Source of the DNA: Leucoraja erinacea | Taxonomy: Eukaryota | DNA: 64,000 nucleotides | Assembly: GCF_028641065.1 (NCBI RefSeq) | Contig: NC_073393.1 | Location: 16,244,001 to 16,308,000 of the forward strand | Direction: 5' to 3' | Shown here: positions 8,376 through 62,738 of the stretch, one piece after another | Layout of the letters: every line of letters starts with the position of its first letter | How positions within the stretch are numbered: the stretch's first letter is position 1 | Position numbers and translations under genes: made by a program | The notes under the pieces: model-generated | Told to the model about the DNA's origin: nothing | The model's database searches: none | What the model saw: only the letters and a program-made list of their open reading frames with translations

Positions 8376-8601
8376 GAATTTCAAGGAATAGTCATGAGTC
8401 AACTGCCAGCCCACCAGCCGTGAGTGAGCTGCCGGCAGATCAGGCTTGAGGGACTGAGCTGCCACCCAAAGAACCCATACCAGCACTCCAGACCCCCCCC
8501 ATTGGCCACCAATATTGGAATTGGTGGAGAGATGGCATATTGCGTCGGGGGACCAGCCCTCCCGTGTGAACATGGGACCCAACGGGTCCCACTTAGTCTA
8601 G

Positions 8602-14016: not shown

Positions 14017-14175
14017 TCATCTTGCTGTTGAATAGACAACCTCTGCTGCTCCGCTGTGTTTGTTTATCTGTAGCTCGGCATACTCTGCCTTTTCTGTGCA
14101 TTTTCTCACATTCCTCTTGCCAGTGAATGCTAAGTTCGCATACGACAGCTCGTCACTTGAATTCTCCCGCACTCT
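14017..14175 (-). CDS. Gene 1 terminal exon with ITIMs (RVRENSSDELSYANLAFTGKRNVRKCTEKAEYAELQINKHSGAAEVVYSTAR*)
   Basis: cttacag| acceptor, 52 codons to TGA. Canonical ITIM LSYANL plus AEYAEL and VVYSTA. Confidence 0.88.
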   Translation of the reverse strand, partial: RVRENSSDELSYANLAFTGKRNVRKCTEKAEYAELQINKHSGAAEVVYSTAR

Positions 14176-17100
14176 CTGTAAGCAGTTTTTTTAAACACAG
14201 TTAATTCATTGTTTTACTAGCTTTTGATATTGCTTCTCAAGTCGCATGTGAAACCGTCAGCCTTCACGTGCTTTGATTGTTATCTATTTTGCTAATCAAA
14301 CAGCCTCACCTGACCATACGAGGTTTGCACACCATCCCGTTTTCGTTTTGGAATGCAATTGGGTTTGCTCAAATGCGGTGGCGGCGATATAACCGGTCGC
14401 AGCTTCTGCTCCCTGCATCATTCGGAAAGAAAAGTTCTTATTATGTGACTCGACGCTTTCATGTCCTTCTGTCGCATTGTAAATGTTTTTTTCCCAAAAT
14501 AAAGATGAGGTGCATTCACGTATGCATTTATGTACATAAAATCGCCAAAATAAAACAGTGGCCGCCGAGTTGATGTTCAAAGGGGTAAATTGGGGGTACT
14601 ATGAATCAATGACTTTACAAGAACTGTGGCTTCAAAAGCCAAAATGTCTTTTTTCAAATACAATCAATAAAGCAACGTAATGGCAGTGTTTTACCGGTGT
14701 ACGTTTTAAGAATAAGCCATTGAAATGGCCAAGTGTGTTCGCTATATATAAATAAACGGTTCGAATATGATTGTCCGATCGCTTATTTTATAGCATTGTT
14801 CTCTGTAAATGTCATGCTGCAATAAAAACATAAACATACCAGCTGCTCGTGACGATTTGGTTCACCAAAACTTTTCTCTTTACCTGGAAAAAATAGTATA
14901 AAAAAGGCAGAATCATTTACTGAATTTCAGACAGTAATTACAAATCTACGTATACTCAGAATGAAGCCAGAAGTATTACTACGCTGCAGTAGTTCATCTA
15001 ACTGCCTCGTGGATTCGGCATCCTTGGTTCAATTGTGACGTTAGCAGCTTCCATTATGGAATCTTTTGATCGCATATGTTTACGCCGTTGCTCCAGATTC
15101 TGCCACATTGCAGCGAACACTGGTTAGGTCAAATGAACAGTCTCTTAACTCACAGTAGGCGATTGGCAGGAATAAATGACGGACATAATAGGTTACAAGG
15201 AAATACGTGGGAATTTGAGACGATAGAAGAAAACACCCTTCGGCCCACCTGCATCTCCAAACGTTACCCCTCACACCTAAATCTATACCCTCTTGTATTT
15301 GATATTTTATTCCCGGGAAAATCGTTCTGACAGTCTACCCTACCCATGCCTCTCCTAATTTCTATATGTTTGTATTTTCTTTATCCTGCTCATGGATTCG
15401 GACGATTTTGTGAACGTTGGGTGCTTGTGTTACTTGTACACTACTTTGTGCTGCCTGTAAGAGACAATCTATATTTTGAAAGTTTATAGCAGACCACGAA
15501 TCTCTGTTACCTAGCCATTGGTGACCTCACAGTGTCCTTGATTGGCCTTTCCCCATTGTGCACTCTCAATGGACTGGCTATTCGGGTATTAGTTCCGATT
15601 AAAGGCATTGACTGAACTGAGATGTTGCTGAAACAGTCACTATCGTTGACCCCAACGATTAATATTACAGTTCATTGTTATCGCTAGAACTTACCCTTAT
15701 TTTTCTGCTTGCGGCACCGCAACCAAATAACGATAATTAGCACTGAAATAAACAATCCACCCACCGCACAACCAGAAGCCACGACCGAAGGTAGTTTGCC
15801 GGCAGAACCTGTAGGGTTTGTAGGAATACATGTTATGGTGGTTGCCAGGTATTCTTCCCGAACGAGGGCGTGTGGGGCGGTTGGGGGTAGGGTGATGCTC
15901 AATGCTCGTGGTGAAAGTGAGACAGGATTGGCAACTCTACAGGAAGCACCGCAAATACAGGACAGCGTAAGATAACAAACTGTATACGAAGGACGACTTA
16001 CAATGTAAGTAAATGATGTCGCGTAAATGACGCGCAAATGACGCCCAAGTAGGACAAGCCCTAAGTCTTACAATATATACCCTGAAGTAATTAAAATATC
16101 GGACAAATTTGTTATGCTGAATTGATTTTCGAAACGAGCTGTGGGTTTAGGGACCTAAACGCTGCTGTATTGCGCGCCATTGATAGGCTGTGCGACTACA
16201 ATATGAGGGGATGGGTGTGAATCCTCCTAATTGAAGACATTCCCCCTATTCTGTCAATTTACTAAATGATACCGTGTCCGTTGGCGACGGTATTGACGCC
16301 TCAATTGAAGCCTCTCTTCTTTTAGAATTCCGTACTTGAATTTGTCACGGTGGCAGTGGGAGTGGATGCCGCACCGAGGAATTTCGGGAGCAGGGGTGGT
16401 TGGATTTTAGCGAAGGTGATCACGGCGAAGCAAAGGATTCGGCATCAGGATAAAAACCGAGGAAGCGTGAGGGAAAACCTAAGCGCCTGAAATCAGTTGT
16501 GCCGCCAAGTGTGGAATCAACGGTGCATTGGGAAACATTTTTGAAAGCAACATGAAAGAAACATCAACACTACCCAATAGAGAGGCAACATGTTTAAATT
16601 TGTTTTTCTATTTTGGAGGGCAAATAAGACATTTTCATTGAAAACGAATGTACAACGAATTGATAACAGGTTTGTTGCATCCGGTCGTTTTATTTTAAAT
16701 GAAAAAGAACTGCAACTTTCAATTGAACTAAGATGAATTTTCCTCGCGGCCTGGAACAAATAGAAATAGTAGTATATTTTTACGAACTGAACAGGGGATG
16801 GATTTGGTGGCATTGTACCTTGGTTACATTCGGAACCAGCGATGACAGCCTGGGCTGGAGTATTGAGGGAGACATGAGTTATTAAACAGGTATATTTGTT
16901 ATCGCTCTGAAATGGCGGCCTCGCGATCAAAGAGCTGGAAACCATATACAACCCTTCGGCGTTCTTCTTTGTTTCGATCTTTATTTCCGATGTTGTTTCG
17001 TTCCCATTTTTATACCAATTAAGCGTGAAATTCTCAGGATAGAATGCGGCTGTTTCACACACATGAATACAACTCGCGGCTGGATTATTTTCACGAGTCT

Positions 17101-17733
17101 TGGTGAAAATTTTCAGTGGAGTTGGAAGCGCTGCAGAACAGAACATGAACAAAATTAAATCACATTACGCCGTTGAAGGGTTGCTATTATTAACCTCGAG
17201 TGGGTTGTAATAATGACGCATTGGAAAATGTATTTGATATTACTTAGACTACGCGCTCATGCCTGGTCCAAATGGCTCTTTCAGGTCGGTGTTTCACGAG
17301 TCTTGCCGATTCAGTGATAATGACGCTTCATTCAAATATTTATGTATTAATCTTCTTAGAGTTTGAATAAATAATCTAATACAACTCGACATATGTTACC
17401 ACGATGGGATTCTCTGAGTTATTTACTCAAAGATAACGATGAGTTTTCTGCGCATCATTAATGATCAAATGAGAAAGCGAGTCGGTTTTGCAGAAGAAGC
17501 AGAGCAGGGGCACAGAAAATGGTGAGGAAAATATGTTGTTTTACCAACACATTACATCCTGCGAACTATATCAACTCTTTCAGGCGTACCTTCATAGGCG
17601 AGGACATACAATATAAATGGTAAACCTTAACTTTACCAAAAGCGTAAATCAACATTTAGAGTATTCGCGGCAGTTCTGGATTCAACATTGGACGAATGTT
17701 GTGATTGTCCCGTCATGGCTGTGTGGAGGGGGT

Positions 17734-17768
<35 letters not shown>

Positions 17769-20700
17769 TAACCTCACATTTATCCGCATTAAACTTCATC
17801 TGCCATGCATCTGCCCACTCCCACAACCTGTCCAAGTCACACTGCATTCTCATAGCATCCTCCTCATAGTTCACACTGCCACCCAGCTTTGTATCATCTG
17901 CAAATTTGCTAATGTTACATTGAACCCCTTCATCCAAATCATTGATGTATATTGTAAATAGCTGCGGTCCCAGCACCAAGCCTTGCGGTACCCCACTAGT
18001 CACTGCCTGCCATTCTGAAAGGGACCCGTTAATCCCTACTCTTTGTTTCCTGTCTGCCAACCAGTTCTCTATCCATGTCAGCACTCTACCCCCAATACCA
18101 TGTGCCCTAATTTTGCCTACTAATCTCCAATGTGGGATCTTATCAAATGCTTTCTGAAAGTCCAGGTACACTACGTCCACTGGCTCTCCCTTGTCCATTT
18201 TCCTACTTACATCTTCAAAAAATTCCAGAAGATTAGTCAAGCATGATTTCCCCTTGTAAATCCGTGCTCACTCGGACTGATCCTGTTGCTGCTATCCAAA
18301 TGTGCGGCTATCTCATCTTTTATAATTGACTCCAGCATCTTCCCCACCACCGATGTCAGGCTAACTGGCCTATAATTCCCCGTTTTCTCTCTCCCGCCTA
18401 TCTTGAAAAGTGGGATAACATTTGCTAACCTCCAATCCACAGGAACTGATCCTGAGTCTATAGAACATTGTAAAATTATCACCAATGTGTCCACGATATC
18501 TAGAGCCACTTCCGTAAGTACCCTGGGATGCCGACCATCAGGCCCTGGGGATTCACAGACATTATAATAGGCAACTCGTAGTAGATAAGGACCTAACGCT
18601 GGTAAATTGAATTTGAGTAGATGGAGAAATAGGTCGGATGGACTTGGAGGACCGGAAGGCTGTTCCTGTGCTGTGCAACTCTGAGACTCCAAGTAGCAAT
18701 GTGTTCAGACCGTGTTTATGATAAGAAACGTTTCCAAGTGAATGTTCTTGAGACATATATTTCCTTGTCTTCTGCTATTGTAATGTGAATAGGTGGTAGG
18801 ATTTGTGTTTTACTCTGGTAATATTTCGACACTATTTTTGTGACGAAGGTTAATTCCCGGGCTGGCGGGACAGTCATACGTTGAAAGAATGGAGTGGCTG
18901 GGCTTGTATACACTGAAATTTAGAAGGATGGGAGTGGATCTTATTGAAACATAGAAGACTATTAAGGGATTGGACATGTTAGAGGGAGGACACCTGGCCA
19001 GATGTTGGGGGAGTCCAGTACCAGGGGCCACATTTTAAGAATAAGGCGTAGGCCATTTAGAACGGAGATGAGGAAAACCTTTTTCACCCAGAGTTGTGAA
19101 TCTGTGGAATTCTCTGCCTCAGAAGACAGTAGAGGCGGATTTTCTGGATGCTTTCAAGCGAGTTAGATGCAGCTATTAAAGATAGCGGAGTCAAGGGATA
19201 TGGGGAGATGGCAGGTTGTGTATGATCAGCCATGATCACAGCGAATGGCGGTGCTAGCTCGAAGGGCCGAATGGCCTACTCCTGCACCTATTGTCTACTG
19301 TCTACTGACATTGCTTTATCATAATTTCCCAATACAATAAAAGATGTTTACCTACCTCTTTAAAATCCAACATACGGTAACTAAAAACGTTAGCATTTAT
19401 TGAGAGAGGACTGGAATGTTAAAAAAAAAACAGGGATGTAATGCTGAGGCTTCATAAGGCAATGGTCAGGCCGCGTTGGCGTATTGTAAACAATTTTGGG
19501 CCCCCATATCTGAGGAGGGATTTTCTAGCGTTGAAAATAGTTCAGATGAGATTTACGAGAATTATCCAGGGGGCGATTGGGTTAACGTATATTGAGCGAT
19601 TGGCGGATCTGGGCCGATGCAATCTGTAGTTTAGAAGTATATGGAGGGGACCTTATTGAAACTTACCAAATGGTGTAAGGACCCGGATAGAGTGGATGTG
19701 GACAGGGTGTTTCCAGGACTGGGAGAGTATAAGACCAGTGGGCACAGTCTCATAACAAAAGGACATTCGTTTGGAAAGGAGACACTGAGGAATTTATTTA
19801 GTCAGAGGGTGATGAAACGATGGAACTAATTACCTCAGATGGCCGTGGCGGCCAAGACTTCTATATTTTTAAACTGAGATTGACGGGTTTTTTAGTTTTA
19901 TGTGAAAGGTTATGAGTCGAAGACAGGAAAATTAGGTTAAAAGGGAAATATTGTTCAGCCATGATTGAATGGCCCAGTAGCCTCGATGGGTCGAATGGTC
20001 TTAGTCTGGTCCTATGATTTATGAACATGAATTTATGAACTTTGTATATTACGTTCCATTGCGCTTCACGTCAGAATTATAAAATTTAGGGAGATTAATT
20101 AGGTGATGCCAGAGTGAATTGGCCAAGGCCATTTAAAATATATGATCTGAGTAACATTCTCCAACTAAAGAAGTAGAACATGAGCAGAGGTTCACTTTCA
20201 GTTAATGCTGACAACACTGGAGCGATTGCATCCTGCTTTGGGCAAAACTGTACAATTCAACCGACTGCAACTCAATGAACATTCAAGGAAATATGTTCTT
20301 GGACTTATTGGATTTCCATAGGTTAAAGATCCATGGTGAACTTTGAAGGAATTTAAAAAACTATTAATTTGATTTTATAAAATCGGACATCGCGTTTCCA
20401 ATTTTGGCGAGATGAGTGAAGTGGAACGGAATTTCATAAAGGAGGATAGGCATGCGGAGGTTCAACCCTCTTGTTCGCAGAATGTAGATAGAGCGGTAGA
20501 TCAGATATACTGAACATAACATACACAAAAAGGCATTAAAGGACATCTTCACAGTGATTCGGTTTGCAAACCATTATATTCCATGATAAAAAACAATTAT
20601 TTTTCGCTTACCATATACTATTAGACGTGATCCGGTTGAATTTCTTGGAGCCATTCCTTTACGAATCACCGAACACTGATACACTCCAGAATCTTGAATC

Positions 20701-20932
20701 TTTGCATTCTTCAACTCAAAGTACCCGCTTGCTCGATCACTCACGCCAAAACGTTTCCTGCCGTCGGTACTTGCAAGTTGGTATTCATTCTCGCCCTGTT
20801 TCCACCATTTGACTCTTACCCGAGATTGGTCTTGAGAAATGGGGAATATGCAGTAGAATTTGGTGTTCCCTCCTTTGTGTAAAATCACTTCTTTGGGCAT
20901 TTGCTGTACGTTGTACGAAATCTGTTCCCCAC
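14017..20932 (-). CDS. Gene 1: inhibitory VJ-C1 IgSF receptor (SIRP/NKp30/VJC1-like), 5 coding exons found, leader not found, ~316 aa without leader
   Basis: Five exons with GT-AG boundaries join in frame (intron phases 1,1,1,0) into V-set domain, C1-set domain, uncharged TM and ITIM tail. Confidence 0.88.
14840..14883 (-). CDS. Gene 1 cytoplasmic exon 1 (GKEKSFGEPNRHEQL)
   Basis: ttttttccag| ... |gtatgt. 44 nt, phase 1 to 0, bridging the TM and last exons in frame. Confidence 0.8.
15695..15808 (-). CDS. Gene 1 transmembrane exon (GSAGKLPSVVASGCAVGGLFISVLIIVIWLRCRKQKNK)
   Basis: ccctacag| ... G|gtaag. Uncharged hydrophobic span with GxxxG, followed by a basic stop-transfer sequence. Confidence 0.88.
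16819..17130 (-). CDS. Gene 1 C1-set Ig exon, 312 nt
   Basis: ttctgcag|CG...CAA G|gtacaa. C1 hallmarks C-x4-FYP, W, Y-x-V-SS-L and YTC-x-I-T-H. Confidence 0.92.
17767..18552 (-). mobile_element. CR1 RT fragment in the gene 1 V-C1 intron (paralogous copy at ~37816-38601)
   Basis: ORFs [13 protein letters not shown]..., [21 protein letters not shown]. Confidence 0.9.
18850..20040 (+). mobile_element. Two CR1 3'-end fragments
   Basis: TRGH-type C-terminal motif and 3' UTR gggccgaatggcctactcctgcacctattgtctac. A second, older copy spans ~19385-20040. Confidence 0.8.
20612..20932 (-). CDS. Gene 1 V(J) exon, 321 nt
   Basis: cctaacag|GT...TAT G|gtaag. FYC, KWW, DSGVYQC and a J-like G strand [10 protein letters not shown]. 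Confidence 0.92.
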
Positions 20933-21734
20933 CTGTTAGGAAACACAGTCAAGGAAAGGTGATTATGTTGATGACGGCAAACGGACGGTAGAATAAAAAG
21001 GACGACCTTACATGTAGCTGCATTAAGGTGTAAACGTGTCGGAAATCATTTTATAAGCTAAAGCAGATGGAACAACGAACAAAGTCGTGCCTATGCAAAT
21101 ATTCCCAACGACTGCCAGTAAGTGAAATATCATACTGGTTTCCATTCCGGCCACCAGCTACAACTAGTTTGTCGGCAGAAAGCAGCGTTGGCAAGTGTAA
21201 AGTGAGGGCGTGGTTTACAGCCGATGAAGGATGATTCATATCCTGTAACCGAAGGTTGCAATTATCATTAGACTGGTTGGATTTCTAAAATCAAATCGGC
21301 CGCGCGTAGCAAAGTAGTGGAAATTATAATTTAAATTTTATTCTTCTTAGTGCTTTTACTCCTACTCTCGATCTTAAATTTAATTCTCGATCATATAAGA
21401 CATATAAATGATGACATAGAAAATTGGCAAGATTTCAAGCAGACATGCCCCATTTATGTCCACAATTAGTTCATTAATACCATTTTTTTTGCACCGTTTG
21501 GACTATCATCGATATTCAAAATCAATTTGCCAATAGTAAGTAGGATTTTTTTCGCAGACTGCATAAAATAAATGCCTGATACGCTGGTTGTTGACTCGAG
21601 CGTGTGCTCCATCGATCAGCATCTGCTTATGTGTCAGTCCGTGATCACATGTGTTCCATGTCGTGATTCAGTGGGCGGTTGGGTAGAGGCACTGGGACCG
21701 AGCGTTGATCAAACCGGATTCTCGTTGCATCGTG

Positions 21735-32316: not shown

Positions 32317-32392
32317 TCATTGGGTGGCGCTTGGTTGATCCTGCTTGAGGTTTCCAACACTCTCTATTTGATGGCTTTTTCTTACATGGACC
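32317..32392 (-). CDS. Gene 2 terminal exon ([24 protein letters not shown])
   Basis: Long polypyrimidine acceptor ttttctccaccctctcttgtttgtgcag|. A phase-2 join to the TM exon gives 24 codons then TGA. Identical in copy 3. Confidence 0.65.
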
Positions 32393-33577
32393 CTGCACAA
32401 ACAAGAGAGGGTGGAGAAAACCTTGCTAACTATCGGCACAATTTAATTATGCAAACATTTGTTCTATAGAAGATAGTTTAAGGATACTTTCTCAGGCGGA
32501 TTAAATATATTCAACAGTTATAAATAACATCACATTTATAAATGGGTACAATTTCAGTAAAGACAAAAGTTTACTTTTATCCCATTTACTCCAAAGGGAT
32601 TGAAAACCATAAGTATTTTAAGTTTAAAAAAGAGTGAGTGGACTCATCGCATGAAGTAAAATTTGTAGAGACTGAAGTTATCATTTTTCATTGCTGGTTG
32701 AAAACCCGGATTGAGAGGGAGCAAGAGGGGGGGGGGGGGGGGGGGGATCGGGGTCTGGCTGAACCTGAATTTCTTTCAAGTTTTATTTTATTTATGCCGT
32801 TTTTTTATCTCTGCATTTTAGGTGTAAATGCAATTGAGGAACATAGAAACAATTGATAAGGATTTTGCATGTAATTTTGCACTATTTTCGCCTATTCTTC
32901 GGGAAATAATTTCAAATTGAAAGTGAAAAGACCGCGGATATTCGCATCTTCTCCTGGAAAATATGCATCTTGGAATGACTTGCCTGTTTCATCAGTCTGG
33001 ATGCAGACTTTAGAGAAACATGAAACTTTACTCTTTGCATTTGATAAAATATCTGCGCTTCAACACTCTTCAATATTGAATATTACCGGCGAAGAATGAT
33101 TGAAGACAAAAGTTGCACGAGAGGGAGCGTGATCGTACCGGCTCTTGGATTCCTTGCCAGCTCATTGGCTTTAACCAGAATAAACAACTTGAGCATTCAC
33201 CGATGCTTATAGTTAATGTACTTGCAACCAGTTCCTCTTACTGTCAACGCTGTGTATAATTCTTCATGCTAAGTTGCCAAGAATATATTGGCATTTCAAA
33301 GAATTTACATCACAGTCCAAGTCCTTCAGATTTAAATTATAATTATATTTATGATCCTCTGCGCCATACACAAACTTTCGCAAATATCTTTCCTAATTCC
33401 ATGAAATATTGTACAAACATATTTTTTCCATATATAACGTACCTTTTATCAAACAGCAACTGACAGTGCGTTCCAATAACGGCACCAATCAGGATCAGGA
33501 GCACCAGAAAGCCCAGAGCAGGTCTAATGTGGAAGGCGTAAGCATTACCTGCAGAAATAATAGGAGCAAATTAATTC

Positions 33578-33617
<40 letters not shown>

Positions 33618-36600
33618 TTGGTGAAATTTGTGCTAATTATTTCTGAGTATAGAAACGATGTCTGCTTGGGAATGCATTCTGCGGAGATTATTCTTCGCCG
33701 GAGTGAACGGGGAGATTCATAGAGAAGGGCGGAATAGCGGAATAAATGTGTGCGTGCCGGGATGGGGGAAGGGCACAGGAAAGAAATACGGGGAAGGGAG
33801 AGTGTTACATAATTGGAAAACTGGTGAATTTAATGTTCCCACCATTGCTTATAATATTGATAGCTAAATTCGATATCTAAATTAACAATCACCAGATGCA
33901 CTTGTAAATCCATATATTTCATGGTTAAATGTAAAGGGAAAGTATACGGTTAATGGCCCTTTACAATATTGATCCGCAGAGGAATGTTGAGGTCGTGATC
34001 AATAGCTTCCTGAAAGTGACAACACCAGTAGAAAGAGTGGTAAAGAAGGCGTGTGGCGTGTTTGCCTTCATTGGCCGCGGCATTGAACCGTCAGGGAGTC
34101 ATGATACGGCTCCCTGGCGCTTTAGCTAGAAAGCATTTGTAATAATACGTGCAGTTATTGCCGCCTCATTACAGGAAGGATGTGAAGAAGTTTACAAAAG
34201 GTTGCCTGAATTAAGGGGCATTTGCTGCAAGGGGGGATTGAACAAACATGTGGAAGATTGAAGGGAGACCTGATAGAAGTATACACAATTATGAGAGACA
34301 TAGATAGTGTAGCCAGTCAGAATCTTTTTGCAAGGATAGCAATATCAAAGAATAGGGGCATAGTATTAAGTTGACAGGGGCAACGATTATAGGAGACTAC
34401 ACCAGGCCCGTTCCCCAAGGCAAAATCCCGCCACTGACCCATATCCCCCAACTGCGCAGGAGTGGCTGAGGGGTTCCCGTTGTGACGCCAGGGATCCCCG
34501 TTATGACTCGATTCATGGCAACCCTCCCCCAACTGCGCCTCGCCATCCCTCATCCTACCCCGCCCTATCCTCCTCTATTCCCCCTCTTGCCCCAGCATTC
34601 CCTCCTCCTCCTCCTCTACATCCTTCCTCTTCTTTCCCCTCCTCCTCCCCTCCCCACTCCCTCCATCACCTCTCCCTCCCACTCCTTTCCCCTACCCACA
34701 GCCACTCCCTCCCTCCATAACCCCTCTCCCCTTCCTAGCCCCCTTCTCTCCCTGAATCCTCCTAATTGAAGACATTCCCCCTATTCTGTCAATTTACTAA
34801 ATGATACCGTGTCCGTTGGCGACGGTATTGACGCCTCAATTGAAGCCTCTCTTCTTTTAGAATTCCGTACTTGAATTTGTCACGGTGGCAGTGGGAGTGG
34901 ATGCCGCACCGAGGAATTTCGGGAGCAGGGGAGGTTGGATTTTAGCGAAGGTGATCACGGCGAAGCAAAGGATTCGGCATCAGGATAAAAACCGAGGAAG
35001 CGTGAGTGAAAACCTAAGCGCCTGAAATCAGTTGTGCCGCCAAGTGTGGAATCAACGGTGCGCAAAATTGGGAAACATTTTTGAAAGCAACATGAAAGAA
35101 ACATCAACACTACCCAGTAGAGAGGCAACATGTTTAAATTTGTTTTTCTATTTTGGAGGGCAAATAAGACATTTTCATTTTAAACGAATGTACAACGAAT
35201 TGATAACAGGTTTGTTGCATCCGGTCGTTTTATTTTAAATGAAAAAGAACTGCAACTTTCAATTGAACTAAGGTGAATTTTCCTCGCGGCCTGGAACAAA
35301 TAGAAATAGTCGTTTATTTTTACGAACTGAACAGGGGATGGATTTGGTGGCATTGTACCTTGGTTACATTCGCAACCAGCGATGACAGCCTGGGCTGAAG
35401 TATTGAGGGAGACATGAGTTATTAAACAGGTATATTTGTTATCGCTCTGAAATGGCGGCCTCGCGATCAAAGAGCTGGAAACCATATACAATCCTTCGTC
35501 GTTCTTCTTTGTTTCGATCTTTATTTCCGATGTTGTTTCGTTCCCATTTTTATACCAATTAAGCGTGAAATTCTCGGGATAGAATGCGGCTGTTTCACAC
35601 ACATGAATACAACTCGCGGCTGGATTCTTTTCACGAGTCTTGGTGAAAAATTTCAGTGGAGTTGGAACTGCTGCGGAACAGAACATGAACAAAATTAAAT
35701 CACATTACGCAGTTGAAGGGTTGCTATTATTAACCTCGAGTGCGTTGTAATAATGACGCATTGGAAAATGTATTTGATATTACTTAGACTACGTGCTCAT
35801 GCCTGGTCCAAATGGCTCTTTCAGGTCGGTGTTTCACGAGTCTTGCCGATTCAGCGATAATGTAGGTTTATCTTCTAAGAGTTTGAATAATAAATCAAAT
35901 ACAACTCGACATATGTTACCACGATGGGATTCTCTGAGTTTTTTACTCAAAGATAACGACGAGTATTCTGGGGGCGAGTACTCAAGTCCTGTGCTACGCA
36001 GCTAGCTCCAGTGCTCACTACATTATCCAACCTCTCCCTGGACAAGTCCGTGGTCCCTGCCTGCTTCAAAAAATCCAACATTGTACCGGTACCAAAAAAT
36101 GCCTCCCCAGCCTGTCTGAATGACTACCGTCCGGTGGCCCTTACCTCGGTAGTCATGAAATGCTTTGAGAGGCTGGTGAAGAAACACATCTGCGCCTTCC
36201 TCCCTCGGAACATGGACCCGTTACAGTTCGCATACCGTCCGAACAGGTCCACTGACGATGCGGTCTCCCAGGTCTTGCACACCGCTCTCTCCCATCTAGC
36301 CAGAAGGGGGGCTACGTGAGGATGCTGTTCATAGACTACAGTTCAGCCTTCAACACGATAGTCCCCACCAGACTGGCTGGGAAGCTAATGGAATTGGGGC
36401 TCAACACCTCCCTGTGTGCCTGGGGCCTGGACTTTCTCACCGCCAGGCCCCAGGTAGTCAAGATGGGAGGGAATACATCGAAGTCCCTCACCCTGAGCAC
36501 AGGATCACCCCAGGGTTGCGTCCTCAGCCCCCTATTGTACTCCCTGTACACACATGACTGTGTGGCTAGGTTCAGCTCCAACTCAATAATTAAGTTTGCT

Positions 36601-37817: not shown

Positions 37818-40225
37818 TAACCTCAACCTCACATTTATCCGCGGATTAAAACTTAATCTGCCATGCATCTGCCCACTCCCACAACCTGTCCAAGTCACAT
37901 TGCATTCTCATAGCATCCTCCTCATAGTTCACACTGCCACCCAGCTTTGTGTCATCTGCAAATTTGCTAATGTTACTTTTAATCCCTTCATCCAAGTCAT
38001 TGATGTATATTGTAAATGGCTGTGGTACCAGCACCAAGCCTTGCGGTACCCCACTAGTCACTGCCTGCCATTCTGAAAGGGACCCGTTAATCCCTACTCT
38101 AAGTTTCCTGTCTGCCATCCACTTCTCTATCCATATCAGCACTCTACCCCCAATACCATGTGCCCTAATTTTGCCCACTAATCTCCAATGTGAGATCTTA
38201 TCAAATGCTTTCTGAAAGTCCAGGTACACTACATCCACTGGCTCTCCCTTGTCCATTTTCCTACTTATATCTTCAAAAAATTCCAGAAGATTAGTTAAGC
38301 ATGATTTCCTCTTGTAAATCCATGCTCACTCGGACTGATCCTGTTATCGATATGTCCGGCTACCTCATCTTTTATATTTGACTCCAGCATCTTCCCCACC
38401 ACCGATGTCAGGCTAACTGGTCTATAATTCCCCGTTTTCTCTCTCCCGCCTATCTTGAAAAGTGGGATAACATTTGCTAACCTCCAATCCACAGGAACTG
38501 ATCCTGAGTCTATAGAACATTGTAAAATTATCACCAATGTGTCCACGATTTCTAGAGCCACTTCCGTAAGTACCCTGGGATGCCAACCATCAGGCCCTGG
38601 GGATTCACAGACATTATAATAGGCAACTCGTAGTCGATAAGGACCTAACGCTGGTAAATTGAATTGGAGTAGATGGAGAAATAGCTCGGATGGACTTGGA
38701 GGACCGGAAGGCTGTTCCTGTGCTGTGCAACTCTGAGACTCCAAGTAGCAATGTGTTCAGACCGTGTTTATGATAAGAAACGTTTCCAAGTGAATGTTCT
38801 TGAGACATATATTTCCTTGTCTTCTGCTATTGTAATGTGAATAGGTGGTAGGATTTGTGTTTTACTCTGGTAATATTTCGACACTAATTTTGTGACGAAG
38901 GTTAATTCCCGGGCTGGCGGGACAGTCATATGTTGAAAGAATGGAGTGGCTGGGCTTGTATACACTTAAATTTAGAAGGATGTGAGTGGATCTTATTGAA
39001 ACATAGAAGACTATTAAGGGATTGGACATGTTAGAGGGAGGAAACCTGTCCCGATGTTGGGGGAGTCCAGTACCAGGGGCCACATTTTAAGAATAAGGCG
39101 TAGGCCATTTAGAACGGAGATGAGGAAAATCTTTTTCACCCAGAGTTGTGAATCTGTGGAATTCTCTGCCTCAGAAGACAGTGGAGGCCGATTTTCTGGA
39201 TGCTTTCAAGCGACAGTTAGATGCAGCTATTAAAGATAGCGGAGTCAAGGGATATGGGGAGATGGCAGGTTGTGTATGATCAGCCATGATCACAGCGAAT
39301 GGCGGTGCTAGATCGAAGGGCCGAATGGCCTACTCCTGCACCTATTGTCTACTGTCTACTGACATTGCTTTATCATAATCTCCCAATACAATAACAGATG
39401 TTTACCTACCTCTTTAAAATCCAACATACGGTAACTAAAAACGTTAGCATTTATTGAGAGAGGATTGGAATATTAAAAAAAAAAGCAGGGATGTAATGCT
39501 TCATAAGGCAATGGTCAGACAGCGTTGGAGTATTGTAGACACGTAACCAGTGTTGACGAGAAGAGCGAAGATGGTCAAACATTGTGTGAATTGAGAAACG
39601 CAGCGTGGAGCTTCAACCTTTCTGTTACACGCAGAGATTTGATACAATAATAATACATATTTATTAAACATAATATCGACAAAAGTATAAAAATATATCT
39701 TCACAGTGAATGGGTTTTACCGCATGTTCTATTTGATATATATTACATTATGTTTCACCCCTCAATTATTTTCGGTTACCATTCCATTCCACCCTTATGT
39801 TCATCATAATATACACACAACGTATTAAAGGACATGGTGAATCGGTATTCCCACCTATTATATTCCATAATAAATACCTCCTTCTCCAATTATTTTTCGC
39901 TTACCATATACTATTAGACGTGATCCGGTTGAATTTCTTGGAACCATTCCTTTACGCGTCACCGAACACAGATACACTCCAGAATCTTGGATCGTTGCAT
40001 TCTTTAACTCAAAGTACCCGCTTGCTCGATCACTCACGCCAAAACGTTTCCTGCCGTCGGTACTTGTAAGTTGGTATTCACTCTCGCCCTGTTTCCACCA
40101 TTTGACTCTTACCCGAGATTGGTCTTGAGAAATGGGGAATATGCAGTAGAATTTGGTGTTCCCTCCTTTGTGTAAAATCACTTCTTTAGGCATTTGCTGT
40201 ACGTTGTACGAAATCTGTTCCCCGC
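32317..40225 (-). CDS. Gene 2: activating-type VJ-C1 IgSF receptor (Arg in TM, short Tyr-free tail), leader not found
   Basis: Four exons join in frame (intron phases 1,1,2). The V and C1 exons each differ from gene 1 by 6 aa, while the TM and tail exons are unrelated to gene 1. Confidence 0.82.
33443..33548 (-). CDS. Gene 2 TM exon ([36 protein letters not shown])
   Basis: ttatttctgcag| ... AAAAG|gtacgt. 106 nt, phase 1 to 2. Hydrophobic span with Arg at its N-terminal edge. Confidence 0.85.
33580..33616. repeat. (TG)n microsatellite in the intron just 5' of the activating TM exon acceptor (copy at ~62769-62804)
   Basis: Direct sequence. Confidence 0.95.
35359..35670 (-). CDS. Gene 2 C1 exon, 312 nt
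   Basis: ttccgcag|CAG... (NAGNAG acceptor) to CAA G|gtacaa. 6 aa differences from gene 1. Confidence 0.92.
35971..37470 (+). mobile_element. Rex1/Babar-clade LINE, 5'-truncated, in the gene 2 intron only
   Basis: [47 protein letters not shown], and a (cttga)n tail. Empty site at 17450/17458 in gene 1. Confidence 0.85.
39905..40225 (-). CDS. Gene 2 V(J) exon, 321 nt
   Basis: Same splice sites as the gene 1 V exon. 11 nt and 6 aa differences by manual alignment. Confidence 0.92.
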
Positions 40226-40691
40226 CTGTTAGGAAACACAGTCAAGGAAAGGTAATTCAGCTGACGGCGGCATACGGACGATAGACCTTACAATTAGTTT
40301 ATAAATAAGCACATGGAATAATGAACAAAGCTGTACCTATGTAAATATTCCTACCGACGATCAACAAGTTAAATATTATTCCGATTTCCATTCCGGCCAA
40401 CAGCTACAACTAATTTGTCCACAGAAAGCTGCTTTGGCAACTGTTAAGTGAGGGCGTGGTTTACATTCTATGAAGTATGATTCACATCCTGTAATAGGGG
40501 TTGCAAGTATCATTTGATCCCTTGGATTCGCTAATGTCTTCTAGAATCAAATCGGCCGCAGATAGCAGAGTGGTGAAAATTATAATTAAAAGGGTATTCT
40601 TCTTATTACGTCCTATCAGGGCGTGGTTTACATTATATGAAGGATGATTTATATCTTGTAACCGAGGGTTGCAAGAATCATTTGATCCGTT

Positions 40692-40781
40692 GGGGAATAT
40701 GCAGTAGGTATTGTTCACCCCCTTTGGATAAATCCACTTCTTCGGGCAGTTGCATTACGTTGAACGAAATCTGTTCAACAA
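40692..40781 (-). pseudogene. Truncated, frameshifted relic of another V exon 5' end
   Basis: Translates VEQISFNVMQLPEEVDLSKG/(fs)NNTYCIFP versus [30 protein letters not shown]. It keeps an AG acceptor and a homologous upstream intron. Confidence 0.8.
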
Positions 40782-47170: not shown

Positions 47171-49161
47171 AATTGACTTGGGAAAATTGTAAATTGTCTC
47201 TAGTGTGTGTTGTATATTGTGCAGGGATTGCATGGACTCGAGGGGCCTAAGGGCCTGTTTCCGCATTGAATCTCTAAACTAAACCTTGTAAAACAAAAAC
47301 AGATGAGCGTCAGCTGAGCAATTTAAAGAACTTCATCAATGAACTGATTGCCAATTAATGACAGCATCAGTTATACATTCCAAACAGATTGCTGGATGAG
47401 TGGTGTCCAACTATGCCTCTTACTTTCAAGTTGTCGAAGATGTTTCAATTCTACATAGAACTCTGGCTGGAAAATAAGACCAAAAATGAACAGCTTACAC
47501 TGGGTGGCGCTATAGTTCACTTCCTCGTGCGACCGGTTTATGTCTTCCAAGTTGCGTTGGAAATGAGTTTCCTAATACCAACAAAAAAGAGAACAAAAAT
47601 CTAAACAATAAGTTGGTAAAAGAACATCTCCACAGAGCATTTAACTTGACATGTGCTCTAACCTGATGTCAAATATAAATATTTTTTAAACTGCTGCTTT
47701 TACAAATCTGAAATAAAAGCACGACATTCTGGAACTATTCATGAAAAGAATGAAAAGATGCCAGTCAAATATGTTAATTCCGTCTCTCTCTCTCCACAGA
47801 TTCCGCTGAATATCCCCAGCACAATATATTTTGGTTCCTGATGCCAGCCTTCCAGAACACAGATTTTGAGGACGAGGTTCTCCCAGGTTGTGAAGGTTGT
47901 AAGGCTTTTCCCTAGTCTTGAACATACACTGGATTTGATTAGGTAATTCAAATTCTCACCAATGGGAGCACCACAACATGTTAATGGAATAGTTGGACAT
48001 TGTACTTTCAATGTAGCAAGTGTCACTTTCAGTCTTGGCCTGACACACTGATGCCTGAATTTTGGCCTGATTGCTCCAGTGATATATAAGAACCTTCATT
48101 GACATACAATGAAGCACAAATCTTATTCAACTTCTTTTTGCGTATGGCCTAAAGTTGTAGGACAACTTGTTCTATTTGTTCTTATTTGATTGTGCACGCC
48201 AGGTTGATTACATTTGTTGAAACAGGGCGGACCACGTGAATGTTGCAATCATTTTGCACTGTAACAACTGTTGCTTGCAAGATGACAATAAAGGTTGATT
48301 GATTGATTGATCTAAAGCCTTGTACAATCTCCCTCCGTTCTGCAAGGTTTGCCAAGTCAGGGACATAACTTTCTTTGATGTCACTGGTGACTTTTTCCCC
48401 CCTTGATTGCCCCGGAGTTCACATTTACCAGGGCTCTTTCATGCCCTAAACAAATATTGCCTTAATGTCAAGAATACTCATGCTGATCTCTGTAATTCCT
48501 TTCTTTTTCAACCAGGCCATGGTAAGATCTGGAGCTGAGCAATCCTGGTGATAGTCAAATTGGGAGCAGGTTATAGGGGAGTAAATGCAGCTTGATAGCA
48601 GTGTGGCTGTCACCTTCCATCACTTTGCTGATGATTGATGATAGACTGATGAGGTGGTAATTAACGGGATTGTAGTTATCGTGCTTTTTAGTTGTTGCAG
48701 GGAGACCTGATTGAAGTATATAAAATAATGCGAGGCAAAGTTAGGCAGGCAGAATCTTTCTCCCATGATGGAAATATCAAATGCTAGAGGGCACAACTTT
48801 ATGGTGAGAGGTTCAAGTTTAAAGTAGATCTGCGGGCGAGTTTTTTTATTCAGAGGGGGATGAGTGCCTGGAACATGCTGCCCGGGGTGGGGTGGGAGAT
48901 CGCAACCTTCACGTGGTCCACCCTGTTTCGACGAATGCAATCAACCTGGCGTGCACAAACAGAAGATCAAACAGAACAAGTTGTCTAAGGAGAAGCTGCT
49001 CGGGCGGTGGTAGTGGAGGCAGATGTGATGGTGGCATTTAATAAACTTTTGGATAGGCATATGGATATGTAAGGAATGGAATAATATGAATTATGTGCAG
49101 GCAGCTAAGAATTGATCTTGGCATCATGTTTTGTACAAGGGCCTGTACCTTTACTGTACTA

Positions 49162-51856
49162 CAATGCCGTCCATAATGTTTGGGACAAAGACCCATCATT
49201 TATTTATTGCCTCTGTACTCCACAATTTGAGATTTGTAATAGAAAAAAATCACATGTGGTTAAAGTGCACAGTCAGATTTTAATAAAGTCATTTTCATAC
49301 ATTTTGGTTTCACCATGTAGAAATTACAACAGTGTTTATACCAGGCGCATGCCGTCAGGGTCAGCAAGGGAGGCACTGCCTACCCGGAATAAAATTATAA
49401 AAAGGTAATTATTAAATATAAATAGTTAAGATTTCCAATTCATTTACTAAATTCAATATCTATTATTAAATGGTTATTATTTTCATAATCGATCTTAGGC
49501 AAATTGAAGACTGTGCAAATCATGTACAAAGCAAAGAATAATTTCTTCCAAGAAATATACAAAAATTTATTTATGGGAAAGACAGGGTGGGTATAATTTG
49601 AGAGGGGAACATAATTAAAAAAAACTCAATGTCAGAACAACTCTTAAAAGTATGTGCATAGCAATCTGTGGTGTGAATTTGTGGAATGGTCTGGAACAGG
49701 AGATAAAACTTAGCACAAGCATAATTCAGTTTAAAAAGATGTACAAAAACACTTGTTTAAAAGGATATTGGGATGAGGATAGGTGATTGTGAGTTGGATA
49801 TTTGTTATACTAATTGTATTGGGAAGGGTGATTATAGAGTGATGGGTTGTATATATGACTAAGATACTGTACAGTATATGAGGGTTTTTTATTTTCTTCT
49901 TTTTTCCTTTTTTGTATGGCTTTGTAAATATTTGATTAGTGTTTAAATGTAAATAATTTGGTGTACATATAGTGGCTGGTGTACATATGGTGTGCATAAA
50001 TTTGTATAAGATAATTACAAGCAGTTGAATAAGGGGTGGGAATTAAAAAGCTTTGGCTTCCTCCTGCTTTTCAGACACATATGATTTCATTTATTTATAG
50101 ATATTGTTTATGACACTTTATAAATATGTTTTTGTTTTTTGTATGCTGTTTCACACTTGCTTTTTATTCATTTATTCTGTTCGATAAAGGCAGCTGAAAT
50201 TCTGCCTTTGCACTATGGACTGCACGCAAGGTGCTGTGCATGCCCACAGGAGAAGAGACCAATCTGCACATGCGCAGTTTTTAAGATTTTTTAAAAGTTG
50301 ACTGACTGCCTGCAGGACAGATTTGTGCATGCGCGCTTTTTACGATTTTTCTACGTATGTGCGATTGTCACGATTTTCTGCACATGCGCAGATTTTTAGG
50401 ATTTTTAAAAGTCAACTGACTGCCTATTGCCTATCTGAGTAATTACTCACGGCATGTGCCTGGATTATACATAGTCCCCCCATTTCAGGGCACCATAATG
50501 TTTGGGACATATGGCTTCACAGATGTTTGTAATTGCTCGGATGCAGGTATTAGAGAGCACTCAGCACCTAGTCTTTCCTCCAGTCTTTCCAAGACTTTTG
50601 GAAACATTTAATGCTGTTTACCAACATGAGGATCAAAGTTGTGCCAATGGAAGTCAAGGAAGCCATTATGAGAGAAACACGAATAAAACTTCCCAAAATC
50701 AACTGTCTGGAGCATCTTTAAGAAGAAAGAGAGCACTGGTGAGCTTACCAATTGCAAAGGGACTGGAAGGCCAAGGAAGGCCTCCACAGCTGATGACAGA
50801 GGAATTCTCTCTATAATAAAGAAAAAAATCCAAACACCAGTCCGACAGATCAGAAACACTCTTCAAGAGTCAGGTGTGAATTTGTCAATGACCACTGTCC
50901 ACAGAAGACTTCATGAACAGAGATAAAGAGGCTATACTACAAGATGCAAACCACTGGTTAGCCGCTAAATTTTAGGATGGCCAGGGTACAGATTGCCAAG
51001 AAGTACTTTAAAGAGCAACCACAGTTCTGGAAAAAGGTCTTGTGGACAGATGAGACAAAGATTAACTTATATCAGAGTGCTGGCAAGTGCAAAGTATGGA
51101 GGAGGGAAGGAACTGCCCAAGATCCAAAGAATACCACCTCATCTGTGAAGCATGGTGGTGGGGGTGTTATGGCCTGGGCATGTATGGCTGCTGAAAGTAC
51201 TGGGTCACTTATCTTCATTGATGATACAACTGCTGATGGTAGTAGCATAATGAATTCTGAAATGTATGACACATCCTATCTGCTCCAGTTCAAACAAATG
51301 CCTCAAAACTCATTGGCCAATGGTTCATTCTACAGCAAGACAATGATCCCAAACATACTGCTAAAGCAACAAAGGAGTTTTTCAAAGCTAAGAAATGGTC
51401 AATTCTTGAGTGGCCAAGTCAATCATCCGATCTGAACCTAATTGAGCATGCCTTTTATATGCTGAAGAGAAACCTGAAGGGGATTTGCCCCATAAGCTAA
51501 AGATGGCTGCAATACAGGCCTGGCCAGAGAAGACACCCAGCAACTGGTGATGTCCATGAATCACAGACTTCAAGCAGTCATTGCATGTAATGGATATGCA
51601 CCAAAATACTAAACATGACTACTTTCATTTACATGACATTGCTGTGTCCCAAACATCATGGTACACTGAAATTGGAAGACAATGTATAAACGCTACATTG
51701 TGAAACCAAATTGTATAGAAATGGCCTTTATTAAAATCTGACAATGTGCACTTTAAGCACATGTAATTTTTTTTCTATTACAAATCTCAAATTGTGGAGT
51801 ACAGATGCAAATAAATAAATGATGGGTCTTTGTCCCAAACATTGTGGAGGGCACTG
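49162..51856 (+). mobile_element. Tc1/mariner transposon, IR/DR type, decayed transposase (~50625-51612)
   Basis: TA-flanked long TIRs. WKKVLWTDETK, SVKHGGGGVMAW, and frameshifted QDNDPKH and WPSQSSDLN. Confidence 0.92.
49342..50462. mobile_element. hAT-type non-autonomous element nested in the Tc1 left TIR, containing a LINE 3' fragment
   Basis: TIR caggcgcatgccgt / acggcatgtgcctg. 8-bp TSD gtttatac / gattatac. Confidence 0.75.
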
Positions 51857-53199
51857 TATATTCTATGTTTTATAACATACCTGAACAACATTCCAGGTAC
51901 ATCCTATTCTTGTAACTGGTACTGCTTGGCCACAATGGTGGCTGAGTCTGGAGTGCAATCTTTCAGCAATATAGCTAGGGTGTTGCCTGGTCCATACTAT
52001 TTGCTTTATGGAATATTACTCAGCCATTCTGGAATTCTATGGTTAGTGCGAATCATGCTGGTCGTAAACAACCTCCTGTAAAGGCAAAGACATCAGCAAG
52101 AAGCCAAACTAAATGCTACTAAACATCAGCTGTCGATAAGAATAGCTTGGCTGATAAGGCCATTCTATCCACATCCTACACACTGACTTCAGAGATGGCT
52201 ACACTCGTGTCAAGACCTAAGCGTCCGGTAGAATTTCCACATCAATGATTCATGCTAAATGGCCACACATTTGCAATTGTGCAAAAGAACATTTAAATTT
52301 AACTTTGCGGTGCTAAATACATGCTGCTATACAATCCAATTTCATGGTAACAGGTTACCTAAAAGTCACAGGCAGCAATCAGCTGCTACATGTGCACATT
52401 AGCACCAGTGGCCGAGAATGTATCTCCAAAAGAAAGAGATTTAAATAGAAAAGATAAGGGAAATGACAAGTTCAAAAACATAAGCCAAGCTGCATATAGA
52501 AAGCAAAGGGAACAAGGGAAGCTGGACACAAAATGTTTGAATAACTCAGCAGGTCAGGTAGCATCTCTGGGGAAAAAGAATATGGGACTTTGCAGGTCGA
52601 AACCTTTCTTCAGACATCTCGACCCAAAATGGGGGGGGGGGGGTGTGGAAGGCTGGTTGAAGTTAATGCCATTGATCTTACATAGTGAAACTTCAAAGGT
52701 CCACTGTACGCTTGCTCAGAAATTCCGATGGTTCAGCATCAGCTCACCTGTTACCTGTGTTCCCTTTGAACTCACCGGGACCTTATTTTCATACCCCTTT
52801 TAAACTCAGTGTTCACTGAAAAAATGATTATACTACCCTGTAACATCCAAAGAAAAGTCCGTTAAAGTAAGTTTCAAGACATTTATTAAAAGTGTATTAT
52901 TAAATGCAAATGCATTTAATATCAATTAATACTATTAAGAGTAATATAAATATTAAGTACATTATCAAGAGTAGAGCTAATAGAACGTGATGTTTCAATC
53001 CCTGTATTAAGTCGTCACTCTTGATATTGGCAGTGGGATTGGAGTAGTGAAAGCTAGGGTAGGTACGTCATCGGGGTCATCAGGTGGGCACCCTCCTTCT
53101 TTGATGTGTCATTGATAGGCCCACAACGTCTCCAGAGAGCTCAACGGTGATACCTGGAGTCCAGGTACAACCCCCCTCAGTTCCATACCCTCCTGTCTT

Positions 53200-55406: not shown

Positions 55407-55506
55407 NNNNNNNNNNNNNNNNNNNNNNNNNNNNNNNNNNNNNNNNNNNNNNNNNNNNNNNNNNNNNNNNNNNNNNNNNNNNNNNNNNNNNNNNNNNNNN
55501 NNNNNN
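55407..55506. other. Scaffold gap (100 N, size probably arbitrary)
   Basis: Run of exactly 100 N, immediately preceded by GATC. Confidence 0.99.
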
Positions 55507-61495: not shown

Positions 61496-61571
61496 TCATT
61501 GGGTGGCGCTTGGTTGATCCTGCTTGAGGTTTCCAACACTCTCTATTTGATGGCTTTTTCTTACATGGACC
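61496..61571 (-). CDS. Gene 3 terminal exon (identical to gene 2)
   Basis: Identical 76 nt and acceptor. Confidence 0.6.
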
Positions 61572-62632: not shown

Positions 62633-62738
62633 CTTTTATAAAACAGCAACTGACAGTGCGTCCCAATAACGGCACCAATCAGGATCAGGAGCACCAGGAA
62701 GCCCAGAGCATGTCTAATGTGGAAGGCGAAAGCATTAA
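62633..62738 (-). CDS. Gene 3 activating-type TM exon ([36 protein letters not shown]); ectodomain exons would lie beyond the window
   Basis: Same splice sites and phases as 33443-33548. The Arg is retained. 6 nt and 4 aa differences. Confidence 0.8.

What the first reader, a model, noticed from the sequence alone, without database searches (positions are those of the whole stretch)
32317..33548. Activating module: TM arginine in an FcR-gamma-coupling-like context
Seen: [16 protein letters not shown] (gene 2) and [16 protein letters not shown] (copy 3) keep Arg at the N-terminal edge of the TM although neighbouring residues vary. Established: an Arg at this position is how LILRA, OSCAR, GPVI, FcaRI and NKp46 pair with FcR-gamma or CD3-zeta, whereas SIRPb and KIR-S use a central Lys for DAP12. 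Inference: a V-C1 ectodomain wired to FcR-gamma or zeta would be an unusual combination.
Basis: partly seen in the sequence, partly recalled or inferred. Interest (0 to 1): 0.7.

Follow-up and report, generated by a model that had tools for sequence, protein, structure and literature searches.

The report
Skate immune receptor's likely on-switch anchor
This skate DNA encodes the membrane anchor and short tail of an antibody-like cell-surface receptor whose membrane arginine likely couples it to an activating signalling chain, making it the likely 'on' partner of a near-identical neighbouring 'off' receptor in a shark-and-ray family where this pairing recurs eight times in this one genome.

Summary
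Both quoted peptides are real. 32317-33548 holds the TM and tail exons of a leader-VJ-C1-TM gene (gene 2, minus strand). The conclusion holds on other evidence. Gene 2's ectodomain is 94% identical to gene 1's, which has an uncharged TM and an ITIM tail. In 28 skate paralogues, 0 of 11 Arg-TM genes keep an intact ITIM-type tail against 13 of 17 uncharged ones. They form 8 well-supported on/off groups. The Arg arose repeatedly and sits 16-21 residues before the cytosolic stop, like the Asp (16) of FcR-gamma and CD3-zeta, both found in this genome. Gene 2's TM exon is unrelated to gene 1's, lacks the LRC NxxR motif and resembles an older shark Arg cassette. Copy 3 is a gene-1/gene-2 chimera. Adaptor binding and expression are untested, and hydropathy cannot place this Arg inside the bilayer. 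This is a known mechanism in a family I did not find described, though four key papers were unreadable. The scan noted this family earlier, on copy 3 and in other genomes.

The parts
33443..33548 (-). Gene 2 TM exon (phase 1 to phase 2); Arg codon AGA at 33523-33525
32317..32392 (-). Gene 2 last coding exon: 24-aa tail without Tyr, then TGA
35359..35670 (-). Gene 2 C1-set Ig exon (a second possible donor lies 9 nt upstream)
39905..40225 (-). Gene 2 single-exon V domain with J-like end (STGSRLIV)
40337..40391 (-). Gene 2 leader exon (predicted)
34753..34753 (.). Point in the C1-TM intron where homology of gene 2 to gene 1 (16218) ends; the 3' TM/tail cassette is unrelated to gene 1's
62633..62738 (-). 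Copy 3 TM exon, Arg codon 62713-62715; its V and C1 lie right of the window (C17:16312889, 16309128)
61496..61571 (-). Copy 3 tail exon, identical in protein to gene 2's
14017..21145 (-). Gene 1, inhibitory twin: leader 21145-21091 (GC donor), V 20932-20612, C1 17130-16819, uncharged TM 15808-15695, tail 14883-14840 and 14175-14017 with LSYANL (ITIM), AEYAEL, VVYSTA
55407..55506 (.). Assembly gap between gene 2 and copy 3; sequence on both sides is a 93-97.5% repeat, possibly two haplotypes

Best explanation
Gene 2 is an intact five-exon gene model for a non-rearranging VJ-C1 surface receptor with a membrane arginine and a tyrosine-free tail, and it likely acts as the activating partner of the adjacent ITIM-bearing gene 1 by binding an FcR-gamma (or CD3-zeta) dimer through that arginine. 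Shown: gene structure; 94% ectodomain identity to gene 1; Arg and loss of an ITIM tail go together across the cluster; both adaptors' TM exons with their Asp are in the genome. Inferred: the Arg sits in the outer third of the helix and pairs with the adaptor's Asp pair; ligand clustering then triggers ITAM-Syk/ZAP70 signalling; the activating form counters something (likely a pathogen decoy) that engages the inhibitory twin. The family makes 'on' genes in two ways: by point mutation of the inhibitory TM exon plus decay of the ITIM exons (shown at nucleotide level for 6 of 8 groups, weak for a seventh), or, as here, by joining the ectodomain to a separate TM/tail cassette that is likely an old shark-and-ray Arg cassette.
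For: Gene 1 versus gene 2 V+C1: 94.3% over 210 aa. Intact Tyr-motif tail exons in 0 of 11 Arg genes and 13 of 17 uncharged genes, Fisher p 6.7e-5; after merging duplicates 0 of 8 and 10 of 14, p 0.0017. Independent pairs on starred branches: 8; trait goes the same way in 7.4 on average and never the other way; sign test median p 0.016. Arg genes as one clade rejected, p-AU 4e-31. Three Arg genes still carry decayed tail exons: B04 with three Tyr replaced, B07 with Tyr to His plus a stop, B09 with Tyr lost. Arg arises at different codons: CTG/CGG, GGA/AGA, TGT/CGT, GGT/CGA. Arg lies 16-21 residues before the first cytosolic charged or His residue (19 in gene 2), where uncharged paralogues have 21-31 charge-free residues or no charge in the exon. 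The Asp of skate FcR-gamma and CD3-zeta lies 16 before (identities). Public relatives: long tail (>60 aa) in 1 of 17 Arg and 31 of 41 uncharged proteins, p 9e-7; 1 of 59 has a Lys instead. FcR-gamma partners use an Arg in the N-terminal TM segment, DAP12 partners a central Lys, and flanking sequence matters little in most cases (PMC1440944, passages). A profile of 11 shark R/Q-x16-[DE][HY] TMs aligns gene 2 with the Arg in register; 0 of 2000 order shuffles score as high.
Against: For gene 2 itself the Arg is at the very edge: if the helix runs to Phe (CQLLF) the Arg is 25-26 residues from the cytosolic charge and could be a luminal flank. It is followed by Pro in gene 2. Uncharged ITIM relatives have Lys or Arg at 21-23, close to my cut-off of 21. 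The cassette match is modest: 14.8 bits against 11.8 for the inhibitory profile, and uncharged gene A01 scores 15.1 on it. I chose the 11 cassette members by eye, and gene 2 lacks their acidic residue. FcaRI with a poly-Leu TM kept only about 11% assembly (PMC1440944), so an Arg alone is not sufficient for FcR-gamma. No spliced reads or exon coverage beyond about one read in 8 RNA runs of unknown tissue. ITIM status rests on tblastn hits and partly automated gene models; 4 of 17 uncharged genes and 10 of 41 uncharged public models lack a long tail, and 4 of 17 public Arg models contain an ITIM-like hexamer.
Confidence: 0.72

Rival explanations
1. The Arg is a luminal flanking residue and gene 2 is a non-signalling decoy or adhesion receptor (SIRP-gamma-like) that competes with gene 1 for ligand.
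For: Hydropathy tie and a possible longer helix ending at Phe. No NxxR and no acidic C-end in gene 2. Some family members have an uncharged TM or Gln at the Arg position and a short tail (P0059, P0178).
Against: Loss of the ITIM tail coincides with an intramembrane Arg in all 8 skate groups. The likely homologous shark cassette has Arg 17 residues before its cytosolic boundary in 9 of 11 members.
Confidence: 0.13
2. It is activating but uses another adaptor (DAP10, DAP12 or a CD3-like chain).
For: NKG2D-DAP10 and Ly49-DAP12 use Arg (PMC1440944). Adaptor rules are untested in cartilaginous fish.
Against: Those Arg cases are type II proteins; type I DAP12 partners use a central Lys. The position matches the FcR-gamma/zeta Asp. 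The DAP10 family search found 0 matches among 19 candidates (not proof of absence). DAP12 was not searched.
Confidence: 0.07
3. Gene 2 is a recent non-functional duplicate, and copies 3 and 4 are assembly artefacts.
For: No RNA coverage of its exons in 8 runs. Large near-identical blocks flank both gaps in the region. Gene 2's leader has Arg where copy 4 has Gly.
Against: All five exons are open with GT/AG sites; copies 3 and 4 keep open V, C1, TM and tail exons with GT/AG sites. pN is below pS in 9 of 12 V and C1 pairwise comparisons, on small counts. Gene 1 was not covered either, judged by its 95%-identical C1, so the runs are probably from the wrong tissues. Haplotype duplication would cut the copy number, not remove gene 2.
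Confidence: 0.08

Closest known systems
SIRP family (SIRP-alpha inhibitory, SIRP-beta activating)
   Same: Clustered paired receptors with homologous ectodomains and ITIM versus adaptor-coupled members (PMC3716694, Background section). V plus C1-set domains; SIRP-alpha and -gamma are among the top PDB hits of the C1 domain. NCBI names many relatives SIRP-like.
   Different: Two Ig domains, not three. Activating members have an N-terminal Arg; SIRP-beta signals through DAP12. No SEP-domain gene (NSFL1C type, recalled as the SIRP neighbour) on C17. CD47 binding untested.
NKp30 / NCR3
   Same: [quoted passage not shown]
   Different: NKp30 has one V domain and no C1, and no inhibitory twin in mammals (recalled). 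No NKp30 chain among the 12 PDB hits of the V domain. MHC class I and II hits lie on small scaffolds, not C17.
LRC-type FcR-gamma partners (LILRA, OSCAR, GPVI, FcaRI, NKp46) and Xenopus XFL TM1
   Same: Arg near the N-terminal end of the TM. A dedicated activating TM exon reused behind different ectodomains. Shark cassette relatives end in an acidic residue, as LRC TMs do (PMC6557307, PMC2413239, passages).
   Different: No NxxR in gene 2 or in 9 of 9 Arg-cassette relatives; no DYT start; V-C1 ectodomain instead of LRC-type domains.
Non-rearranging VJ-C1 genes (PRARP, UrIg/UrIg2) and TCR-alpha
   Same: Single-exon VJ followed by C1; UrIg2 is the top PDB hit of the C1 domain and TCR-alpha chains are among the V hits. 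TCR-alpha is V-C1 with a TM Arg that binds zeta-zeta (recalled).
   Different: UrIg2 has nine C domains (PMC12227049, passages). No rearranging segments here. PRARP details are recalled only; no sequence comparison was possible.
KIR and Ly49 mode of paired-receptor evolution
   Same: Activating forms derived repeatedly from inhibitory ones by a TM basic residue and tail loss (PMC1440944, PMC6557307, passages).
   Different: Here the gain is Arg in FcR-gamma register, at several different codons, alongside a separate cassette.

Membership tests
Paired activating/inhibitory Ig receptors | Different genes in one cluster | tested here: met
   18 V-C1 gene copies at C17:15.92-16.33 Mb (some probably haplotype duplicates) and 11 at 19.89-20.10 Mb
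Paired activating/inhibitory Ig receptors | Highly similar ectodomains | tested here: met
   86-98% V+C1 identity within the 8 groups; gene 1 versus gene 2 94.3%
Paired activating/inhibitory Ig receptors | ITIM tail in one member, charged TM and short tail in the other | tested here: met
   (sequence features only)
Paired activating/inhibitory Ig receptors | Opposite signalling shown in cells | not testable with these tools
   needs experiments
FcR-gamma/CD3-zeta-coupled receptors | [quoted passage not shown] | tested here: inconclusive
   Edge position in gene 2 (hydropathy tie); in register with relatives whose Arg is 16-20 from the cytosolic stop
FcR-gamma/CD3-zeta-coupled receptors | Adaptor genes with TM Asp present | tested here: met
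   TM exons at C24:19504147 (best hit FcR-gamma) and C13:4210633 (best hit CD3-zeta); ITAM exons not recovered
FcR-gamma/CD3-zeta-coupled receptors | Physical association with the adaptor | not testable with these tools
   needs co-precipitation
LRC NxxR-type TM | NxxR motif | tested here: not met
   Gene 2 reads FHIR; 0 of 9 Arg-cassette relatives have N at -3
LRC NxxR-type TM | Acidic residue at the C-end of the TM | tested here: inconclusive
   Absent at that place in gene 2 (GTH); present in the shark relatives, which were chosen by it
SIRP | Three Ig domains | tested here: not met
   One V and one C1 exon per gene
SIRP | Activating member of DAP12 type (central Lys) | tested here: not met
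   11 of 11 charged skate TMs have an N-terminal Arg; 1 Lys in 59 public relatives
SIRP | Synteny with NSFL1C (recalled) | tested here: not met
   SEP-domain hits on C4 and C21 only; flanks found are a GST-like exon and a septin exon
SIRP | CD47 binding of the inhibitory member | not testable with these tools
   none
NKp30/NCR3 | Single VJ domain, no C1 | tested here: not met
   C1 exon present; some public relatives do lack C1
NKp30/NCR3 | MHC linkage | tested here: inconclusive
   MHC I and II matches lie on small unplaced scaffolds
PRARP / other VJC1 genes | Orthology by tree and synteny | not tested
   No reference sequences; Fu 2019 seen only as a title, Ohta 2019 not held

The most novel reading that the evidence does not exclude
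Cartilaginous fish carry a large, so far undescribed innate receptor system built from antigen-receptor-like, non-rearranging VJ-C1 chains. Its activating arm signals through FcR-gamma/CD3-zeta, as TCR-alpha does, and is remade continually, both by fresh Arg mutations and by swapping ectodomains onto an Arg cassette older than the shark-ray split. Copy 3 would be such an off-to-on swap caught in the act. The system would be the shark counterpart of KIR/LILR/SIRP and a living model for how a pre-RAG V-C1 receptor became wired to zeta-family adaptors.
Probability: 0.35. Interest if true: 0.75.

Novelty: new variant of a known kind. Interest (0 to 1): 0.5.

Why it matters
How sharks and rays balance 'self, do not attack' against activation in innate cells is poorly known. 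This family gives matched on/off pairs, named adaptor candidates in the same genome and natural single-codon switches, so adaptor choice and paired-receptor evolution can be tested in the oldest jawed-vertebrate lineage. The TM-Arg mechanism itself is textbook.

Tried and rejected
Complex prediction of the gene 2 TM exon with two FcR-gamma TM chains gave no answer (score 0.05, mark 0.34); not used as evidence. No RNA holder was listed for the stretch. Eight RNA runs of unknown tissue, 1-32% of each read, showed only repeat-derived coverage and no splice joints. The word-indexed search with the V domain for longer proteins found nothing. The TM exon had no PDB hit at E<=10 and no Pfam hit. The ITAM family search rang nowhere and is uninformative; my ITAM regex in the adaptor loci found no convincing exon. 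The first TM profile test had 1 of 11 cassette and 4 of 28 inhibitory segments mis-cut and was redone. Rejected: that gene A14's 'VRPA' and gene 2's 'IRPA' share an origin (z -0.3; A14 derives from its own twin A13, z 6.3). Rejected: that gene 2's TM is a point mutant of gene 1's (z 1.3, different 3' splice phase). Rejected: a long 5' extension of gene 1's TM exon used (poor acceptor). No signal of positive selection among the four copies on small counts. Left out of counts: B11, the C17:13.62 Mb singleton and a V pseudogene (tails not examined); the uncharged first TM exon of A03 and the second of A09; 15 public isoform, duplicate or same-species records were on the exclusion list, and models without a TM were skipped; P0140 was skipped in the tree. 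No paper describing this family was found in ten full-text searches. Kinlein 2021, Ohta 2019 (32), Flajnik 2012 (37) and Flajnik 2023 (18) are not held and may describe it. The one supplementary file held for PMC3964593 had no hit even for NKp30, so its immune notes were probably not seen.

Full report
What is there. The window is G000:C17:16244001-16308000. The organism is a skate: protein P0017, which NCBI labels Leucoraja erinacea, matches the V and TM exons of cluster gene B09. The finding spans the last two coding exons of a minus-strand gene: TM exon 33548-33443 and tail exon 32392-32317. With leader 40391-40337, V 40225-39905 and C1 35670-35359 they give an open 289-aa model with GT/AG sites throughout. 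Pfam confirms V-set and C1-set. The V is one exon ending in a J-like strand. The tail after the TM has no tyrosine. Both quoted peptides are present.

Gene 2 and copy 3 differ at 6 of 106 nt and 3 of 34 aa in the TM exon, inside a 2,897-bp block of 96.8% identity. Keeping one residue is the expected outcome. A fourth copy lies just right of the window, and these three are the only matches of the exon in the genome search. An N gap separates gene 2 from copies 3 and 4, and about 39 kb left of the gap is repeated right of it at 93-97.5%; a second gap further left is flanked by a repeat of about 110 kb. I read these as likely uncollapsed haplotypes (inference; read depth not available). So the copies are not independent witnesses.

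An inhibitory twin. Gene 1 (21145-14017) has V+C1 94.3% identical to gene 2, an uncharged TM and a tail with LSYANL, AEYAEL and VVYSTA. Homology between genes 1 and 2 stops at 16218/34753 in the C1-TM intron. Their TM exons are not detectably related (z 1.3 against shuffles) and end in different splice phases. Copy 3 is a chimera: 7.8 kb covering 5' flank, leader, V and C1 is 96.7% identical to gene 1, and its TM/tail block is 96.8% identical to gene 2. This is the layout that unequal crossing-over between an off and an on gene would leave (inference).

The cluster as the real test. I fetched 534 kb and 250 kb around two clusters on C17 and 30 kb around a singleton (with the window). They hold 18 and 11 V-C1 gene copies; 28 were scored. 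[quoted passage not shown] Intact Tyr-motif tail exons follow 0 of 11 and 13 of 17 (p 6.7e-5; merged duplicates 0 of 8 and 10 of 14, p 0.0017). Two of the 13 (A01, A05) have Pro at -2 and so are not canonical ITIMs. The ectodomain tree puts Arg genes into 8 separate starred groups, each with an uncharged relative at 86-98% identity. One clade of Arg genes is rejected (p-AU 4e-31), and the independent-pairs sign test gives median p 0.016. One group (A03/A07) may be allelic. In six groups the Arg exon is a clear homologue of its twin's uncharged exon (z 6-24), in a seventh weakly (z 2.7), with different codons changed. Three Arg genes retain decayed tail exons with lost tyrosines or a stop. Public relatives come from chimaera, sharks and rays and carry automatic names (SIRP-like, tapasin-related, NCR3LG1-like). 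Of 59 counted, 17 have the Arg, 41 are uncharged and 1 has a Lys; long tails occur in 1 of 17 and 31 of 41. These are gene models and some are truncated.

Origin of gene 2's TM. Eleven shark proteins share a TM ending in [DE][HY] with Arg (9) or Gln (2) 17 residues earlier. They sit on several branches of the ectodomain tree, as a reusable cassette would. Gene 2 aligns to their profile with [11 protein letters not shown] in register and the Arg on the Arg column; 0 of 2000 shuffles reach its score. But the margin over the inhibitory profile is only 3 bits, an uncharged gene scores as high on the cassette profile, gene 2 lacks the acidic end, and I picked the members by eye. Homology is likely, not shown. 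Neither gene 2 nor the nine Arg relatives have the NxxR motif that defines LILRA, NCR1, GPVI, FcaR and OSCAR TMs (PMC6557307 and PMC4536121, passages).

Which adaptor. The genome has two zeta-family TM exons with the Asp; their best PDB hits are FcR-gamma (C24) and CD3-zeta (C13). In both, the Asp is 16 residues before the first cytosolic basic residue. The skate Arg residues are 16-21 before it, 19 in gene 2 if His is the boundary. Feng et al. (PMC1440944, passages) report that FcR-gamma partners use an Arg in the N-terminal segment (position 3 in FcaRI) and type I DAP12 partners a central Lys. For gene 2 the hydropathy windows with and without the Arg tie, so membrane embedding rests on the family pattern. 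A DAP10 search found nothing; DAP12 was not searched. Association is not shown. Expression is not shown either: eight RNA runs of unknown tissue did not cover the exons.

Comparison. It works like SIRP, LILR and KIR pairs. It fails SIRP membership on domain number and activating residue (PMC3716694, abstract and Background) and on a recalled synteny marker. It fails NKp30 on the C1 domain, while sharing the VJ domain and Arg (PMC6514059, passages). MHC linkage is undecided. Relation to PRARP and other VJ-C1 genes named in PMC10751288, PMC12227049 and PMC11599192 (passages) could not be tested. V-C1 plus a zeta-binding Arg has a precedent in TCR-alpha (recalled). Ten searches of the held library found no description of this family, but four relevant papers are not held and one supplement was probably not seen (see Tried and rejected). 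Earlier unreviewed notes of this scan describe the same family on copy 3 and in other genomes; I use them as leads only.

Verdict. The peptides are real, the two-copy argument is void, and the activating reading is well supported by paralogue comparison (0.72). Mechanism known; family apparently little described. New variant of a known kind, interest 0.5.

Noticed in passing
window 62633-62738 and G000:C17:16308531-16316262: Copy 3 is a chimera: gene 1's promoter region, leader, V and C1 joined to gene 2's Arg TM and tail, i.e. a likely off-to-on conversion by unequal crossing-over.
   Followed up: partly
window 21091 and G000:C17:16313362: The leader exon of gene 1 and copy 3 ends at a GC donor (GCACGA) where gene 2 and copy 4 have GT; splicing of the inhibitory gene may be weak.
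   Followed up: no
G000:C17:15957818-15959227: Gene A03 has two TM exons in tandem, uncharged then Arg, and no ITIM exons; its counterpart A07, possibly an allele, has one uncharged TM and ITIMs.
   Followed up: partly
G000:C17:15874001-16125114 and 16260218-16345805: Both assembly gaps in the cluster are flanked by long 92-99% repeats, probably uncollapsed haplotypes that inflate gene counts.
   Followed up: partly
window 35359-35380: Gene 2's C1 exon ends in GCECNQ with two free Cys near the membrane (one, GSECNQ, in gene 1 and copy 4); disulfide-linked dimers are possible. An extra Cys also precedes the C1 B-strand Cys.
   Followed up: no
G000:C17:16181154-16196042 and 13622976-13633691: Two family members have an uncharged TM and, for the first, a Lys-rich tail without Tyr motifs that is conserved in other species (P0020, P0068); function unclear.
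   Followed up: no
G000:C17:16362642, 16405194, 20119859: Flanking exons: GST-like (Pfam below cut-off), one that I recall as EEPD1-like (no Pfam hit) and a septin; useful for later synteny work.
   Followed up: partly
window 40717-40776: A 20-codon remnant of a second V exon start lies upstream of the leader in gene 2 and copy 4.
   Followed up: no
window 5790-8380: Tandem repeat arrays of roughly 50-bp units with long open frames on both strands.
   Followed up: no
window 49100-51900 and several introns: Transposase-like remnant near 50600-51430 and many LINE reverse-transcriptase fragments (class recalled from the translations).
   Followed up: no
P0059, P0178: Two shark cassette-type TMs have Gln at the Arg position; polar-residue coupling or loss of function.
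   Followed up: no
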